Positions 29,587 to 34,178 of a stretch of DNA of 51,634 nt are shown one piece after another. How positions within the stretch are numbered: the first letter of the stretch is position 1; every line of letters begins with the position of its first letter. The stretch lies in IMG/VR virus record IMGVR_UViG_2579779024_000005. One strand, written 5' to 3'. The notes beneath the pieces were generated by a model. It had not been told where the DNA came from and made no database searches. It worked only from the letters and a program-made list of their open reading frames with translations. Made by a program: the position numbers and the translations under genes. The stretch comes from a virus. Lineage: Duplodnaviria; Heunggongvirae; Uroviricota; Caudoviricetes.

Positions 29587-30120
29587 TTATCTGTCGATTC
29601 CCCAGCACGCCAGCGCGCTCTCCTGGTCACGACGGAATACCTGACCGTAACAGTTATTTGAGCGAATACGGCAGTCTCTGCCACCGTCCTTAATCCACCA
29701 GCGAATCGCTTCGCATGCTCCCCTGCGATCACCTGCATTAATTCGTCTGTAAAACGTCGACGGGAAACACTTACCGGGACCAATGTTGTACGGACAGAAT
29801 GACGCGATCCCCGCTTTCTGGGGTTCGGTCAATGGCACTTTGATGTTTTTCTCCACCCATGCCAGCGCCTTATCACGCTCAATGGCGTTAACCCGGTCGC
29901 ATTTTTCCTTCGACAACTTCATGCCCGGAACGACAGGTTTGCCATCCACCAGGATGGCACCGCGGCAGATGGTCCAGATACCCGCGCCATCACGGTATGC
30001 CGTGGTGTGGTTACCTTCCTTTTCATCCAGAAACTGGTCGAGAATGTCAGGCGCAGGCGCACCAGCGGCAATCAGCGCCAGAACGGCAGCCGACAGGCCG
30101 TATCTGATTTTTGCGTTCAT
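29587..30120 (-). CDS. R: SAR endolysin (T4-lysozyme-like)
   Basis: 177 aa; N-terminal signal-anchor-release segment (LSAAVLALIAAGA) and lysozyme core (...EGNHTTAYRDGAGIWTICRG...). Confidence 0.85.
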   Translation of the reverse strand: MNAKIRYGLSAAVLALIAAGAPAPDILDQFLDEKEGNHTTAYRDGAGIWTICRGAILVDGKPVVPGMKLSKEKCDRVNAIERDKALAWVEKNIKVPLTEPQKAGIASFCPYNIGPGKCFPSTFYRRINAGDRRGACEAIRWWIKDGGRDCRIRSNNCYGQVFRRDQESALACWGIDR

Positions 30121-30225
30121 GGATATTTATCAGGATTTATCGGTTTCTGAGCCCTGGATATGTTTATCAGTTCCAGCCTGTTGCCTCAGGCTGCTAACAG
30201 GTCAATACAATCATGAGGATTATTT

Positions 30226-30498
30226 ATGGACAATAACACCATTTCTCTACAGGAGTTGCTCGACAGCATTTCCAGGCTTCGGGAAGACGTGAATACCCTT
30301 ACCGTCGCCTTCTCATATCTGGCATTCTCAATTCCAAGGGAACAGATGCAATCAACGCTGGCATCAATCCAGTTTGAATCATGCAATCCCAAATGGTCTC
30401 AGGAACAACAAGACTCTTTCAGGCGGCTTGCTGTATTACTGGATGAAAAATATGCTGGTAAAATTACCATTTCGGCGGACTCTTCAGAGAACCCGTAA
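30226..30498 (+). CDS. Hypothetical 90-aa protein, antisense to the lysis operon
   Basis: GAGGA RBS 7 bp upstream of ATG; overlaps the 3' end of the convergent 114-aa ORF by ~35 bp. Confidence 0.45.
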   Translation: MDNNTISLQELLDSISRLREDVNTLTVAFSYLAFSIPREQMQSTLASIQFESCNPKWSQEQQDSFRRLAVLLDEKYAGKITISADSSENP

Positions 30499-30808
30499 TT
30501 ATTCCCGGTAGTTTTCCTCTGTAGGTTATCAACACATCCTGCGCCTCTAAAATTACGGGGCGCTTTTCCGGCGACTGCTCATCCCCTTCACATAACCCGG
30601 CAGCAACATCCAGGAAGACCTGTCTGATGCTCCTTCTGGCTGCTGCCTCATAAAACTCCAGCGCGGCACCTTCAACACGGTCCAGCGAGATGTCCAGGTC
30701 AAAAATTTCACCGTCAAAGCGTTTTTTGTCCCGTAACGCTAAAGTTACCGTAACTTTATTCTCAAAATTGCGGATCCCTTTCACAATCAGTTCATAGTTT
30801 TGAGTCAT
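30464..30808 (-). CDS. Hypothetical protein between holin and endolysin (ydfR-like position)
   Basis: 114 aa; starts 4 bp after the holin stop. Confidence 0.55.
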   Translation of the reverse strand: MTQNYELIVKGIRNFENKVTVTLALRDKKRFDGEIFDLDISLDRVEGAALEFYEAAARRSIRQVFLDVAAGLCEGDEQSPEKRPVILEAQDVLITYRGKLPGIITGSLKSPPKW

Positions 30809-30812
30809 TGAA

Positions 30813-31028
30813 TTACTCTCCCCGTGCCGCCTTACGACGGTCCTCTCTGATTTTGAAATACAGGTTAGTCAGATATGTCAGCAGCCCAAACAGCAGACTC
30901 CCCAGCACGCCTATTGCCGCCCACTGAGACGGGGAAACCCTGTCCAGCAACTGCAGGAACCAGTAGCCCGTTCCCACCGCTGACGTGGTGTATGACACAC
31001 CTGTTGTGATTTTTTCCATCTGGTACAT
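30813..31028 (-). CDS. S: Holin with dual-start motif
   Basis: [71 protein letters not shown], as recalled for essD-type holins; M-Y-Q-M dual start. Confidence 0.85.
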
Positions 31029-31155
31029 ACCCCGTCTCCCGTTATCCGGAAGCTGACAACAATAAAAAAAGCCACCAGTTAAGTACTGATGGCTCTGATA
31101 ACTCATGCAGGCATCTCAGACGACCCACTGACACTACCGGTGAGTTTAACGATAC

Positions 31156-33417
31156 CTTCCATTTGACTGGCTCACTTTTTATGATGATGCCGGTGCATTT
31201 ATCTCCAGCACCAGACTTTCTATCTCAACGCCATACGTTGCATTTTTGGTAATATCCGTCAGCGTCAGCGCATTCAGCCCCAGTGTCAGACTGTCTTTTA
31301 TGACCTGGAATGCCGGGCCAGCCACTCCATTCAGTTTCGGAGTAACCGTGGCACTGCCGGCGGTGAACACCAGCTCCAGCGTCTGCCAGTCGTTACTGTA
31401 ATTCCCGAACTCGCCCAACTTTGTGTTTCCTGCTTTCTTGTGATGCATCAGATTCAGTTTGCCGTCTGTGGTCTGGGTGAAGAACGACATCAGGAACGGG
31501 TTACCAGTCCCGGTCATCGCCACGACGTCAGGTAACGCTACATCGGTATACAGATAAATTCCCAGACCGAACTGATTGTTGGTCAGTGCGCCTGACAGTC
31601 GAAACTTACAGCTCAGTCTGCCACCCCGTGTCAGCAGGGAGACTGCGTCATCCACCGGGCGCGTCAGGGACCAGGCTTTATTGCTCTGCTTGGTGATCTT
31701 AAATACACCATCTGACAACTGAATTCCGCCATTCTTAATGCTCCAGCCCTGCGCAGCAGCATCTCCGGCTGTCGGCAACAGGGAGATTGTGCGTACGGAT
31801 GCATCTTCAGACGGCCCCGATGGCGTGTCGCCGCCGGGCGAGGGTTTGATTTCCGGTGCCTTACCACTAATGAAGGCTAAGGTGCGACCGGCTACGTTCA
31901 GAATAGCAGTTGCCATACGATCGGGAATAATGCCACGACGCGCCCATGAGCTGAAATGCGTCGGGCGATTTGATGATACCCAGTTTTTGTTCGTTCGGGA
32001 TGCCGAACCGTAATAACCAGACCCGGCAATATCAGGATCTTCTGACGGGTTGTTTGTCGGTGTATTAACTCCGCTACCATCGGTCATAAAGGGAACAAAA
32101 TAAATCTGCTGGGATTCTTTACCTTTATATGCACCATATACCACTTCATATTGCGTACCGTGTTCTTGTTTCCACGCGTATGTCGTGTCGCCACAAATCC
32201 AGGGGACTGATGCCGGACTTCCACCGTGACACTGCGCCGCCAGCCCGGCAAGGTCAGCACGGAACTGCTGTACCATTGCAAGAAATCTTCCATTTGACTG
32301 GCTCACTTTTTATGATGATGCCGGTGCATTTATCTCCAGCACCAGACTTTCTATCTCAACGCCATACGTTGCATTTTTGGTAATATCCGTCAGCGTCAGC
32401 GCATTCAGCCCCAGTGTCAGACTGTCTTTTATGACCTGGAATGCCGGGCCAGCCACTCCATTCAGTTTCGGAGTAACCGTGGCACTGCCGGCGGTGAACA
32501 CCAGCTCCAGCGTCTGCCAGTCGTTACTGTAATTCCCGAACTCGCCCAACTTTGTGTTTCCTGCTTTCTTGTGATGCATCAGATTCAGTTTGCCGTCTGT
32601 GGTCTGGGTGAAGAACGACATCAGGAACGGGTTACCAGTCCCGGTCATCGCCACGACGTCAGGTAACGCTACATCGGTATACAGATAAATTCCCAGACCG
32701 AACTGATTGTTGGTCAGTGCGCCTGACAGTCGAAACTTACAGCTCAGTCTGCCACCCCGTGTCAGCAGGGAGACTGCGTCATCCACCGGGCGCGTCAGGG
32801 ACCAGGCTTTATTGCTCTGCTTGGTGATCTTAAATACACCATCTGACAACTGAATTCCGCCATTCTTAATGCTCCAGCCCTGCGCAGCAGCATCTCCGGC
32901 TGTCGGCAACAGGGAGATTGTGCGTACGGATGCATCTTCAGACGGCCCCGATGGCGTGTCGCCGCCGGGCGAGGGTTTGATTTCCGGTGCCTTACCACTA
33001 ATGAAGGCTAAGGTGCGACCGGCTACGTTCAGAATAGCAGTTGCCATACGATCGGGAATAATGCCACGACGCGCCCATGAGCTGAAATGCGTCGGGCGAT
33101 TTGATGATACCCAGTTTTTGTTCGTTCGGGATGCCGAACCGTAATAACCAGACCCGGCAATATCAGGATCTTCTGACGGGTTGTTTGTCGGTGTATTAAC
33201 TCCGCTACCATCGGTCATAAAGGGAACAAAATAAATCTGCTGGGATTCTTTACCTTTATATGCACCATATACCACTTCATATTGCGTACCGTGTTCTTGT
33301 TTCCACGCGTATGTCGTGTCGCCACAAATCCAGGGGACTGATGCCGGACTTCCACCGTGACACTGCGCCGCCAGCCCGGCAAGGTCAGCACGGAACTGCT
33401 GTACCATTGCAAGAAAT
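31156..33417. repeat. Perfect tandem direct duplication, 2 x 1131 bp, covering the 3' 1.1 kb of the esterase gene
   Basis: Copy 1 is 31156-32286 and copy 2 is 32287-33417; the translated ORFs in both copies are identical. Confidence 0.85.
31179..32306 (-). pseudogene. Duplicated 3' fragment of the nanS-p-like esterase gene (C-terminal 370 aa only)
   Basis: 375-aa ORF identical to the C-terminus of the 622-aa protein; its N-terminal codons are created by the duplication junction; lacks the esterase domain. Confidence 0.6.
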
Positions 33418-34178
33418 GCTGCTGGCTGCTGGGCGTAACTGGCATTCGTCATATCGAATTCCCCCTGCATCCAGCATATCGCCAGCAAAACGTTTTTCGG
33501 GTTTTTCTGCAATGCTGCCTTCGTGCGGAAAAGCAGATCCTGATATAACGGCTTACCCACTCCCCAGCGAGCCGAATCCTGACTGGCCCCCGTGGACTCG
33601 CTGAATGTCCCCTCCGTGCCCTGGGTGAATGCCGAACCACCACGACAGCATGGTACCAGCAGGATCCCCGCATTATTAGGGATATACGGAAGCAGTTTTT
33701 TGGCAATATGTAAGCCCTGTCCGACACAGCCGTACTGCCCTTTGCTCAGGTCAGCCCGGGGATGGTTAATCGTACTCATATCCTGAACATCATGCAGACA
33801 ATGGTCAGCAGGAATGATGTCGTTAAATACGCATACTTCACCACCGGGAGTCACTGTGTTACGACGGGCCAGTTGCTTAATGCGCGGATGGGGCGCATCG
33901 TATGAATCCGGAAGCGGAAGCCCTTCACCGTAAGCCATGGCATTGGATTGCCCGGCCAGTACGATGACGTAGTACCACTCCGGCTCAGTTGCACCACTGA
34001 CGACCACATCACCTTCTGCTGCAATCGCCTGCATCAGGGTATAAGGGGTTATGGCCACCGGACTACCAAACGGCTGCCAGCCCTCTTTCAGTTTATGTGT
34101 CAGCTTTTCCGCAAGATCTGACGGCGACGCCGCCCTGACAACATCATAGTGTTTAAATGCCATGGTTCTTTCCACCAT
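32310..34178 (-). CDS. nanS-p: Prophage sialate O-acetylesterase (NanS-p-like)
   Basis: 622 aa; DUF1737-like N-terminus, SGNH/SASA esterase core with GQSNA motif (IVLAGQSNAMAYGEG), C-terminal beta-rich domain. Confidence 0.75.
   Translation of the reverse strand: MVERTMAFKHYDVVRAASPSDLAEKLTHKLKEGWQPFGSPVAITPYTLMQAIAAEGDVVVSGATEPEWYYVIVLAGQSNAMAYGEGLPLPDSYDAPHPRIKQLARRNTVTPGGEVCVFNDIIPADHCLHDVQDMSTINHPRADLSKGQYGCVGQGLHIAKKLLPYIPNNAGILLVPCCRGGSAFTQGTEGTFSESTGASQDSARWGVGKPLYQDLLFRTKAALQKNPKNVLLAICWMQGEFDMTNASYAQQPAAFLAMVQQFRADLAGLAAQCHGGSPASVPWICGDTTYAWKQEHGTQYEVVYGAYKGKESQQIYFVPFMTDGSGVNTPTNNPSEDPDIAGSGYYGSASRTNKNWVSSNRPTHFSSWARRGIIPDRMATAILNVAGRTLAFISGKAPEIKPSPGGDTPSGPSEDASVRTISLLPTAGDAAAQGWSIKNGGIQLSDGVFKITKQSNKAWSLTRPVDDAVSLLTRGGRLSCKFRLSGALTNNQFGLGIYLYTDVALPDVVAMTGTGNPFLMSFFTQTTDGKLNLMHHKKAGNTKLGEFGNYSNDWQTLELVFTAGSATVTPKLNGVAGPAFQVIKDSLTLGLNALTLTDITKNATYGVEIESLVLEINAPASS

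What the first reader, a model, noticed from the sequence alone, without database searches (positions are those of the whole stretch)
30121..30808. Holin and endolysin are separated by a co-directional unknown ORF and a convergent antisense ORF with repeats in the divergent promoter region
A 114-aa ORF follows the holin stop by 4 bp. A 90-aa plus-strand ORF with a strong RBS converges on it with ~35 bp of overlap and diverges from the endolysin start. The 105-bp spacer before the endolysin holds direct repeats GGATAT(T/G)TTATCAG (about 30121 and 30155) and a 7-bp perfect hairpin (cagcctg/caggctg). The endolysin may therefore be under separate control from the holin.
Basis: seen in the sequence. 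Interest (0 to 1): 0.55.

Follow-up and report, generated by a model that had tools for sequence, protein, structure and literature searches.

The report
Antisense moron pair inside lysis cassette
Between the holin and endolysin genes of this E. coli prophage sits a common two-gene "moron" of unknown function (YdfR plus a small backward-facing gene); nothing shows that it controls the endolysin, and its upstream spacer is a worn-down copy of a conserved leader that many lambdoid phages place in front of such backward-facing genes.

Summary
The anatomy is confirmed. On the minus strand lie an S21-type holin, YdfR/DUF1327 4 nt later, and a lysozyme with an N-terminal hydrophobic stretch. A 90-aa plus-strand ORF converges on ydfR with a 35-bp overlap, and a 105-bp spacer holds the repeats and a 7-bp hairpin.

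The 90-aa ORF is a real gene: dN/dS is 0.12-0.45, it matches phrog_2411, and it is predicted to form three helices. It lies on a ~273-bp stretch absent from many phages that keep S-ydfR-R. About a fifth of complete E. coli genomes carry it.

Its homologues always converge on a late-strand gene ending in an "ITGSL..P" tail. This holds in lysis, tail and packaging slots, so the pair is a mobile module, not a lysis part.

The spacer is a decayed copy of a conserved ~150-nt leader. The leader has a TAnnnT hexamer, a covarying hairpin and an SD/anti-SD helix. It precedes at least 18 families of 63-106-aa genes, almost always antisense to late operons. In HK022 and ES18 these genes are annotated as morons.

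No terminator or promoter separates holin from endolysin, so separate endolysin control is not supported. The best model, by analogy only, is a noncontiguous operon: the antisense gene is made in lysogens and YdfR is made late.

The parts
30813..31028 (-). S21-type class II holin (71 aa)
   Evidence: PF04971 E 9e-33. PGAP and GenBank annotate homologues as class II holin or holin S.
30464..30808 (-). ydfR-like gene (DUF1327, 114 aa). This is the late-strand partner of the module. It has a beta-beta-beta-alpha N-domain (residues 1-73), a linker, and a tail ...IITGSLKSPPKW.
   Evidence: PF07041 E 7e-43 and phrog_406. AF2: strands 5-14, 18-27 and 34-43, helix 50-73, pLDDT 63.5 with a low-confidence C-terminus. 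K-12 YdfR binds the RNase E N-terminal half and co-purifies RNA (PMC13232886).
30226..30498 (+). orf90: an antisense small gene (phrog_2411) predicted to form three helices, with a disordered tail
   Evidence: dN/dS 0.12-0.45 with a third-position excess across 9 loci. phrog_2411 E 1e-58, full length. Length is conserved at 58-99% identity. AF2 pLDDT 76 with helices 8-34, 38-52 and 59-76. No PDB fold match. No Pfam, NCBIfam or PADLOC hit.
30464..30498 (.). 35-bp convergent overlap of orf90 and ydfR
   Evidence: In the overlap, substitutions fall mainly on orf90 codon position 2, which is ydfR position 3. The orf90 tail therefore evolves under the ydfR constraint.
30186..30458 (.). Stretch of ~273 bp present here but absent from phages with S-ydfR-R only (boundaries approximate)
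   Evidence: Alignment with vB_EcoS-733R4. GC is 0.44 against 0.54-0.55 in S and R.
30121..30225 (+). Spacer: a decayed copy of the conserved antisense-cassette leader
   Evidence: The left 60 nt are near-identical to full-length leaders in the same slot (Stx2 phage 86, L056) and alignable to the HK022 and ES18 leaders. The CM built from 65 copies gives its only hit in 28000-32000 here, but at just 8.8 bits, E 1.4.
30128..30136 (+).
   Evidence: The consensus ATCAGGRTGTT is 72-94% conserved across 68 copies, apart from the R position, which is split A/G. TATCAGG is invariant.
30152..30164 (+).
   Evidence: All 68 distinct copies have TAnnnT ending 6-8 nt before TCAGCCC. That this is a promoter is inferred, not shown.
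30174..30193 (+). 7-bp hairpin CAGCCTG/CAGGCTG, read as the remnant of leader helix P1 (UCAGCC/GGCUGA). The inner hairpin P2 and the SD/anti-SD helix P3 are missing here.
   Evidence: Within the orf90 group the hairpin is only partly kept, at 3-7 bp, with no compensatory change.
30215..30219 (+). Shine-Dalgarno GAGGA of orf90
   Evidence: AGG is invariant in all homologues aligned.
29587..30120 (-). Phage-lysozyme-family endolysin (R21-type, 177 aa) with a hydrophobic N-terminus
   Evidence: PF00959 E 9e-24. The N-terminal stretch YGLSAAVLALIAAGA is seen in the translation. The SAR (signal-anchor-release) character is from my own knowledge of R21 and was not tested.

Best explanation
The interval between holin and endolysin holds a horizontally mobile two-gene moron, not part of the lysis machinery. 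One gene, YdfR/DUF1327, lies on the late strand and is transcribed with S and R from the Q-dependent late promoter. The other, orf90 (phrog_2411), faces backwards and converges on it.

orf90 keeps a decayed copy of a conserved leader. That leader consists of a weak sigma70-like TAnnnT promoter followed by a structured 5' UTR, and lambdoid phages place it in front of many small antisense genes nested in late operons.

The most likely mode of action is that of a noncontiguous operon. In the lysogen only orf90 is made, from its own promoter, and it acts for the host or prophage, most plausibly against other phages. After induction, late transcription runs antisense through orf90 and suppresses it. 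At the same time the cell produces YdfR, whose conserved C-terminal tail is the cognate partner or neutraliser of orf90.

Shown here: both genes are real, they are co-inherited across unrelated genomic slots, the orientation rule holds, the leader is conserved, and its hairpin covaries. Inferred: promoter activity, expression in the lysogen, protein-protein pairing, and any anti-phage role.
For: - orf90 is under purifying selection and forms a small, clade-restricted family.
- The orf90 stretch is extra DNA relative to S-ydfR-R phages and has low GC.
- The S-R slot is a cargo site with at least four states.
- In 7 independent contexts the orf90 homologue converges on a late-strand ORF ending in [I/L][T/I]G[S/D]L..P. 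These are window, L009, L010, L014/15, L016, L020 and L021, in lysis, tail M-L, tail I-J, packaging-proximal and pre-holin slots. These partner ORFs are the best non-YdfR hits to a YdfR-tail HMM among 2845 fragments.
- The leader occurs in at least 96 viral contigs, upstream of 64 distinct 63-106-aa ORFs in at least 18 clusters.
- 63 of the 68 cassettes with a long ORF on each side are antisense to both long neighbours. Neighbours include a small terminase subunit, HNH, tail protein L and an R-type lysozyme.
- Hairpin P2 is 93.7% paired, with compensatory changes in 4 of 8 pairs, and 0 of 500 shuffles reach the observed score.
- TAnnnT is invariant in 68 of 68 copies.
- The CM hits HK022 upstream of the 'srb/gp23 moron' (116.6 bits) and ES18 upstream of gene 25, a 'possible moron' that converges on a DUF1327 gene (106 bits). 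It also hits Stx2 phage 86 in the same S-R slot, upstream of an unrelated antisense ORF.
- The converging late-strand neighbours are recurrently DUF1327-like or MTLEQRVEALEK-type small proteins.
- Precedents for antisense defence genes nested in phage operons with an adjacent, lytically expressed neutraliser: Tai/Ati in phi80 (PMC11364771) and Tha/Ith in S. aureus phages (PMC11087260).
Against: - No consensus sigma70 promoter is found upstream of orf90 or its homologues, and no terminator-like site lies downstream.
- The window's leader lacks the P2 and P3 helices and scores only 8.8 bits, so orf90 may be poorly expressed here.
- PADLOC and fold searches give no link to any defence protein.
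- YdfR without orf90 is common, so YdfR must have a function of its own.
- One orf90 homologue (L018) stands alone in a chromosome, with no partner.
- The tail-motif similarity is short and individually non-significant (E 0.15-4.7).
- The Tai/Ati and Tha/Ith analogy rests on architecture only.
Confidence: 0.55

Rival explanations
1. Lysis-timing device. Here the antisense gene, or its transcription, uncouples endolysin from holin expression, or tunes the S:R ratio. It would act through transcriptional interference or a double-stranded RNA overlap.
For: The position between S and R, the 35-bp convergent overlap, and the promoter-like leader facing away from R. Antisense transcription contributes mildly to switching in the Tha/Ith system (PMC11087260).
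Against: - No terminator or promoter lies on the late strand between ydfR and R.
- Identical cassettes sit in tail and packaging operons.
- Many phages with the same S and R lack orf90.
- S-ydfR-orf90 is also joined to an unrelated lysis set.
- Selection acts on the protein sequence of orf90.
- Q-modified late transcription is known to be highly processive (general knowledge of lambdoid phages).
Confidence: 0.1
2. YdfR-centred RNA-metabolism module. In this reading YdfR is an RNA-binding, RNase E-interacting protein that modulates decay of late or host transcripts. orf90 would be its regulator or antagonist, and the convergent overlap would create a double-stranded RNA substrate.
Confidence: 0.15
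3. Toxin-antitoxin or addiction pair that stabilises the prophage.
For: Two small, co-inherited, overlapping genes with reciprocal expression potential.
Against: No hit to any TA or defence profile. Each partner occurs alone, YdfR without orf90 and orf90 in L018. Overexpression of K-12 YdfR was not reported as toxic, unlike YegJ. Convergent genes on opposite strands are atypical for type II TA systems.
Confidence: 0.08
4. orf90 is a decaying or silent remnant in this prophage. Its leader has lost the structured part, so the gene no longer functions here even though the family is real.
For: The leader scores only 8.8 bits against 31-117 bits elsewhere. Frameshifted and truncated alleles exist (P0061, P0041 and others).
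Against: The short-leader form is the common one in E. coli: the 380-bp spacer-plus-orf90 query is covered at least 80% in 1117 of 5426 genomes. Within that form the ORF still shows dN/dS of 0.23-0.44 and keeps its 90-aa length.
Confidence: 0.1

Closest known systems
Morons of lambdoid phages (Juhala et al. 2000 concept, reviewed in PMC3594210). Concrete relatives are HK022 gp22/gp23 'srb' and ES18 genes 24/25.
   Same: - It is extra DNA at a fixed position in a conserved gene order, with lower GC.
- HK022 gp23 and ES18 gp25 carry the same leader (116.6 and 106 bits), are antisense to the tail operon, and converge on a small late-strand gene. In ES18 that gene is a DUF1327 protein.
   Different: - The slot here is the lysis cassette, not the tail.
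- The cargo protein (phrog_2411) differs from srb and gp25.
- The leader is truncated.
- No terminator-like site was found.
- Whether it is expressed from the repressed prophage is unknown.
Noncontiguous-operon defence/counter-defence pairs: Tai/Ati of phi80 (PMC11364771) and Tha/Ith of S. aureus phages (PMC11087260)
   Same: An antisense gene is nested in a phage operon beside a co-inherited partner on the operon strand. The architecture predicts mutually exclusive expression in lysogeny and lysis.
   Different: - There is no sequence or profile similarity to Tai, Ati, Tha or Ith.
- phi80 lacks the leader.
- The proteins here are far smaller, at 90 and 114 aa.
- No defence phenotype, target or interaction is known.
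E. coli K-12 Qin prophage essQ-ydfR-rrrQ
   Same: It has the same S21-type holin, YdfR and R-type lysozyme order (my own knowledge of the K-12 map). The YdfR family membership is shown, and YdfR as a Qin prophage protein is.
   Different: K-12 YdfR is 103 aa with a different C-terminus. I did not check whether the K-12 locus carries an antisense gene.
PeSL-type mobile promoter/stem-loop cassettes of T4-like phages (recalled from memory: Arbiol et al. 2010; not checked here)
   Same: A conserved promoter-plus-hairpin unit repeatedly precedes diverse small ORFs, which suggests modular shuffling.
   Different: The phage group, the sequence, the orientation rule (antisense to late operons) and the presence of a paired late-strand gene all differ. 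This comparison is a lead, not a test.

Membership tests
DUF1327 / YdfR family (Pfam PF07041) | Profile match above the gathering score | tested here: met
   145.2 bits against a cutoff of 25, E 7e-43, residues 1-111.
phrog_2411 (orf90) | Full-length profile match | tested here: met
   E 1.1e-58, positions 1-90 of 90. Distant members P0185, P0187, P0192 and P0194 also match.
Phage 21-type lysis cassette (S21 holin, R21 endolysin, Rz) | PF04971 holin, PF00959 lysozyme with a hydrophobic N-terminus, and an Rz spanin, all on one strand | tested here: met
   PF04971, PF00959, PF03245; N-terminal YGLSAAVLALIAAGA. Pinholin and SAR (signal-anchor-release) behaviour themselves were not testable.
Moron (Juhala et al. 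2000) | Extra DNA relative to related phages at a conserved position | tested here: met
   A ~273-bp stretch is absent from vB_EcoS-733R4 and many others.
Moron (Juhala et al. 2000) | Base composition differing from the flanking genes | tested here: met
   GC is 0.41 in the spacer, 0.45 in orf90 and 0.48 in ydfR, against 0.54 in S and 0.55 in R.
Moron (Juhala et al. 2000) | Own promoter | tested here: inconclusive
   No consensus promoter by scan. A TAnnnT hexamer is invariant in 68 of 68 leaders and present here as TATGTT 30159-30164.
Moron (Juhala et al. 2000) | Own factor-independent terminator | tested here: not met
   No terminator-like site on the plus strand between 30498 and 30980. Only a weak inverted repeat is present, 30457-30467 with 30495-30505.
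Moron (Juhala et al. 2000) | Expression from the repressed prophage | not testable with these tools
   This needs RNA-seq or reporter data.
   8.8 bits, E 1.4 in 4 kb with filters off. Only the upstream block, Block A and P1 are retained. It is a truncated derivative, not a full member.
Noncontiguous-operon defence/counter-defence pair (Tai/Ati, Tha/Ith) | Antisense gene nested in a phage operon with an adjacent partner on the operon strand | tested here: met
   Partner co-occurrence was seen in 7 contexts.
Noncontiguous-operon defence/counter-defence pair (Tai/Ati, Tha/Ith) | Homology to a known defence or counter-defence protein | tested here: not met
   No PADLOC, Pfam or NCBIfam hit for orf90. 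No PDB fold match.
Noncontiguous-operon defence/counter-defence pair (Tai/Ati, Tha/Ith) | Anti-phage activity of the antisense gene, and its neutralisation by binding of the partner | not testable with these tools
   This needs plaque assays and interaction assays.
Type II toxin-antitoxin | Match to known toxin or antitoxin families, in a co-directional bicistronic operon | tested here: not met
   No profile hits, and the genes are convergent.

The most novel reading that the evidence does not exclude
The ~150-nt leader may be an undescribed, portable expression cassette of lambdoid phages. It has five parts:

- an ATCAGGRTGTT block;
- CCCTGG followed by a TAnnnT hexamer;
- a long-range pair UCAGCC/GGCUGA;
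- a covarying 8-bp hairpin with a GGGA-rich loop;
- an SD-like/anti-SD-like helix that would cross the long-range pair as a pseudoknot just upstream of the real SD.

In this reading the cassette gives many unrelated small antisense genes a shared regulatory logic, such as lysogen-specific or factor-controlled translation. The cassette would also define a large family of convergent two-gene modules, each with a late-strand YdfR-like or MTLEQRVEALEK-type partner and an antisense cargo gene. These modules would act as paired effector and neutraliser systems. The holin-endolysin pair in this window is one worn member.
Probability: 0.35. Interest if true: 0.7.

Novelty: new member of a known kind. 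Interest (0 to 1): 0.45.

Why it matters
For the locus itself the result is sobering. The gene order S-ydfR-(antisense ORF)-R is common, is already annotated as hypothetical proteins in about a fifth of complete E. coli genomes, and gives no sign of special endolysin control.

Its value is as an entry point. It shows that YdfR/DUF1327, a protein recently tied to RNase E, is the late-strand half of a recurrent convergent gene pair. It also shows that such pairs share a conserved, structured leader across HK022, ES18, Stx phages and many uncultivated phages.

If these pairs work like Tai/Ati or Tha/Ith, they would be a large untapped set of very small prophage-encoded effectors with built-in neutralisers. 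The leader would then be a simple sequence tag for finding them.

Tried and rejected
- **Spurious ORF.** Rejected for orf90 by dN/dS and codon-position counts.
- **Known RNA family in the spacer or in full leaders.** Rfam 15 finds none at E<=1.
- **Structured minus-strand RNA between ydfR and R.** Rejected, z = 0.05.
- **Fold assignment of orf90.** Foldseek against PDB gives nothing below E = 1.
- **Defence-system profiles.** PADLOC gives none.
- **The ITGSL tail as a general feature of partners of all leader cassettes.** Rejected, 0 of 83. It is specific to the orf90 family.
- **The tail motif as an artefact of antisense overlap with orf90.** Rejected, because the overlap is only 7-20 bp in L014, L009, L010 and L016.
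- **The leader in phi80 next to tai/ati.** Absent.
- **Other leader copies in this window.** None with default filters.
- **Literature.**
  - No paper holds 'ybl58' or the leader sequence strings.
  - DUF1327 appears once, in passing.
  - The ES18 primary paper is not held, and I did not attempt to retrieve the HK022 one; their GenBank notes are the only source used.
- **Searches that found nothing.** The search for related loci with the broad alignment failed. Several distant homologues were absent from IMG/VR.
- **Promoter scans.** No consensus promoter lies upstream of orf90 homologues in four other loci.
Full report
**What is there.** The window is a lambdoid E. coli prophage whose late genes run on the minus strand. 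Around the finding, in the late direction, the order is as follows:
- a nanS-p-like esterase (32310..34178);
- an S21-type class II holin (30813..31028, PF04971);
- a 114-aa YdfR/DUF1327 protein starting 4 nt after the holin stop (30464..30808, PF07041, E 7e-43);
- a 90-aa ORF on the opposite strand (30226..30498);
- a 105-bp spacer;
- a phage-lysozyme endolysin with a hydrophobic N-terminus (29587..30120, PF00959);
- further on, a terminator-like hairpin, two tiny hydrophobic ORFs and Rz.

The corrections are minor. The two repeat copies differ by a 2-nt indel, and the hairpin lies at 30174-30180 and 30187-30193. Taken as a repeat, the pair is no better than seven other short repeat families in the same 900 bp.

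**The antisense ORF is a gene.**
- Homologues of 58-99% identity keep the 90-aa length.
- Across nine loci, pairwise dN/dS is 0.12-0.45, and changes pile up at third codon positions, for example 7/4/26.
- Inside the 35-bp overlap the changes move to orf90 position 2, which is ydfR position 3. The disordered tail of orf90 is therefore shaped by ydfR.
- The protein matches phrog_2411 over its full length.
- It has no Pfam, NCBIfam or PADLOC hit.
- It is predicted as three helices (pLDDT 76) and has no PDB fold match.
- An exhaustive profile search finds only 20 clusters at 50% identity. The homologues traced to an organism come from Escherichia, Shigella, Citrobacter and Yersinia.

**It is an insertion in a variable slot.** Many phages, such as vB_EcoS-733R4, have S-ydfR-R with a 63-bp intergenic spacer and no orf90. 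The difference is ~273 bp, roughly 30186-30458.

After YdfR residue ~111 the same slot can hold any of four things:
- nothing (a 116-aa YdfR);
- orf90;
- a C-terminal YdfR extension (183 aa, phage 2H10);
- a 268-aa YdfR plus an unrelated 104-aa antisense ORF (Stx2 phage 86).

In the Stx2k phage the block S-ydfR-orf90 abuts a wholly different lysis set. GC drops to 0.41-0.48 across the spacer, orf90 and ydfR, against 0.54-0.55 in S and R. The 380-bp spacer-plus-orf90 stretch is covered at least 80% in 1117 of 5426 complete E. coli genomes, where PGAP calls the genes 'hypothetical protein' and 'YdfR family protein'.

**orf90 travels with a partner, and not only in lysis cassettes.** In every phage context recovered, the orf90 homologue converges on a late-strand ORF whose end carries [I/L][T/I]G[S/D]L..P.

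| Locus | Partner tail |
|---|---|
| Window | IITGSLKSPPKW |
| Two Citrobacter-type loci | KITGSLRAPIKL, KITGSLRVPMKL |
| L010 | RIIGSLITPPEL |
| L014 | QIFGDLKKPPSY |
| L016 | RLTGDILIPLES |
| Yersinia | KITGSLFAPLSAHPSE |

The N-terminal parts of the partners differ: DUF1327, short coiled coils, or a 238-aa protein. The slots differ too:
- between holin and endolysin;
- before a holin;
- between tail genes M and L;
- after tail gene I;
- beside the terminase genes.

A YdfR-tail HMM ranks these partner ORFs first among non-YdfR fragments. Each hit alone is weak, at E 0.15-4.7 in 2845 fragments. The overlap with orf90 is only 7-20 bp in four of them, so antisense coding constraint does not explain the motif. 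One distant homologue stands alone in a chromosome.

**The spacer is a worn copy of a widespread leader.** Upstream of distant orf90 homologues I saw conserved non-coding blocks and a hairpin whose stem changes with compensation. I scanned IMG/VR for TCAGCCC-N30-50-GGCTGATWAMC.

The consensus reads:

..ATCAGGRTGTT..(N)..CCCTGG-TAnnnT-N6-UCAGCC-[8-bp hairpin, loop GUGGGA]-..-GGAGGGAU-GGCUGA-UUACCUCUG-..AAGGAA..AUG

On 65 distinct copies:
- hairpin P2 is 93.7% paired, with compensatory changes in 4 of 8 pairs, and 0 of 500 shuffles reach the observed score;
- the SD-like/anti-SD-like helix P3 is 84% paired, with two compensatory pairs;
- the long-range pair UCAGCC/GGCUGA is invariant, but only because the search pattern fixed it.

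If P1 and P3 both form, they cross as a pseudoknot. That reading is my inference.

All 68 distinct copies have a TAnnnT hexamer 6-8 nt upstream of UCAGCC. This fits a -10 element with transcription starting at the structured part. That too is inference, and no consensus -35 is present.

Rfam 15 has no match, and no paper in the library holds the sequence strings.

**What follows and surrounds the leader.**
- It precedes 64 distinct ORFs of 63-106 aa (two outliers of 210-211 aa), with an overall median of 75, falling into at least 18 sequence clusters.
- In 63 of the 68 cases with a long ORF on each side, the cassette is antisense to both.
- Neighbours include a small terminase subunit, an HNH endonuclease, tail protein L, a DNA methylase and an R-type lysozyme in the same slot as here.
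- The late-strand gene converging on the cassette is usually small and of recurrent kinds. These are an MTLEQRVEALEK-type coiled coil, DUF1327-like beta-beta-beta-alpha proteins, or simply tail gene M.

**Link to named phages.** A covariance model of the leader hits three named phages.
- HK022 at 116.6 bits, directly upstream of 'srb, moron gene product gp23'. That gene converges on 'gp22, moron gene product' between tail genes I and J.
- ES18 at 106 bits, upstream of gene 25 ('possible moron'). That gene converges on gene 24, a DUF1327 protein, between tail genes M and L.
- Stx2 phage 86 at 46.8 bits, upstream of its unrelated antisense ORF in the S-R slot.

In the window the model's only hit within 28000-32000 is the spacer, at just 8.8 bits, E 1.4. 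An alignment shows why. The first ~60 nt are near-identical to the full leaders of Stx2 phage 86 and L056 in the same slot; this stretch includes both 'repeat' copies, namely the TATCAGGAT block and CCCTGGATATGTT. The inner hairpin and the SD/anti-SD helix are missing. Within the orf90 group that hairpin varies from 3 to 7 bp without compensation.

**Does this put the endolysin under separate control?** I find no support.
- The scan shows no terminator-like or promoter-like site on the late strand between ydfR and R.
- The minus-strand RNA across the interval folds no better than shuffles.
- The conserved spacer elements face, and belong to, the antisense gene.
- The arrangement recurs in operons unrelated to lysis.

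Some interference of antisense transcription with R expression cannot be excluded without transcript data.

**How it most likely works.** Two recent studies give a precedent for the architecture.
- In phi80, the defence gene tai lies antisense within the Q-dependent late operon. It sits next to ati, a late-expressed protein that binds and neutralises Tai (PMC11364771).
- In S. aureus phages, tha and ith form an antisense 'noncontiguous operon' that makes immunity and its inhibitor mutually exclusive (PMC11087260).

By analogy I propose the following. orf90 is made in lysogens from its own weak promoter. After induction it is shut down by late read-through. YdfR is made only late and is its cognate partner through the conserved tail.

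This model fits the orientation rule, the co-inheritance and the low GC. No experiment or homology supports a defence role, and YdfR often occurs without orf90.

An independent lead concerns YdfR itself. K-12 YdfR binds the catalytic half of RNase E and co-purifies RNA (PMC13232886). The predicted N-domain is a beta-beta-beta-alpha fold with only weak, generic structural neighbours.

**Verdict.**
- The interpretation about endolysin control is not supported.
- The object is a member of a known kind, a moron pair, and is common in E. coli.
- The conserved structured leader and the recurrent late-strand/antisense pairing are, as far as I could search, undescribed. They are the part worth following up.

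**Caveats.**
- The leader set was ascertained with an exact pattern in one collection.
- Neighbour orientation used naive ORFs of at least 150 aa.
- The CM E-values are rough.
- I could not read the original HK022 and ES18 papers.

Noticed in passing
window 31179-32286 and 32310-33417: A perfect 1108-bp direct repeat (100% identity, period 1131). The 3' part, the C-terminal ~369 codons, of the nanS-p-like esterase gene 32310..34178(-) is duplicated immediately downstream as ORF 31179..32306(-). This is either a very recent tandem duplication or an assembly artefact.
   Followed up: partly
window 28918-29586: About 670 bp are inserted between the endolysin and Rz. The stretch holds a strong terminator-like hairpin on the late strand (29496..29464, 15 pairs plus a T run). 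It also holds two tiny hydrophobic ORFs: 29163..29294(-), 43 aa, phrog_4906, and 29044..29160(-), 38 aa, phrog_1115. GC is 0.46. This is a second accessory insertion within the lysis cassette.
   Followed up: no
window 31068-31096 (-): A terminator-like hairpin (12 pairs plus a T run) on the late strand, between the duplicated esterase fragment and the holin gene.
   Followed up: no
L020:3587-4270 (Citrobacter meridianamericanus prophage): By eye, a HicA/HicB-like toxin-antitoxin pair sits just beyond the 238-aa partner of the orf90 homologue, upstream of a different holin/endolysin/Rz set. No profile search was run.
   Followed up: no
L014:1023-1040 (-) and ES18 L143:1950-1971 (-): A terminator-like hairpin on the late strand lies just beyond the leader of the antisense cassette, before the next tail gene. 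In ES18 it is annotated as the terminator of gene 24. This suggests the late-strand partner may also be an independent transcription unit.
   Followed up: no
Cargo ORFs in L026, L039, L066, L080 and others: Some antisense cargo proteins themselves look like beta-beta-beta-alpha YdfR-N-domain-like proteins by eye, for example MSELKLNAIDFISF... and MKFKVDVIGGL.... A YdfR N-domain HMM gives no significant hit to them, the best being E 0.16.
   Followed up: partly
window 30526-30553 (+): The only consensus sigma70-like promoter match in 29300-31300 (TTATCA-16-TAAAAT) lies inside ydfR, antisense, pointing towards the holin. It falls within coding sequence and occurs no more often than in shuffles.
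   Followed up: no
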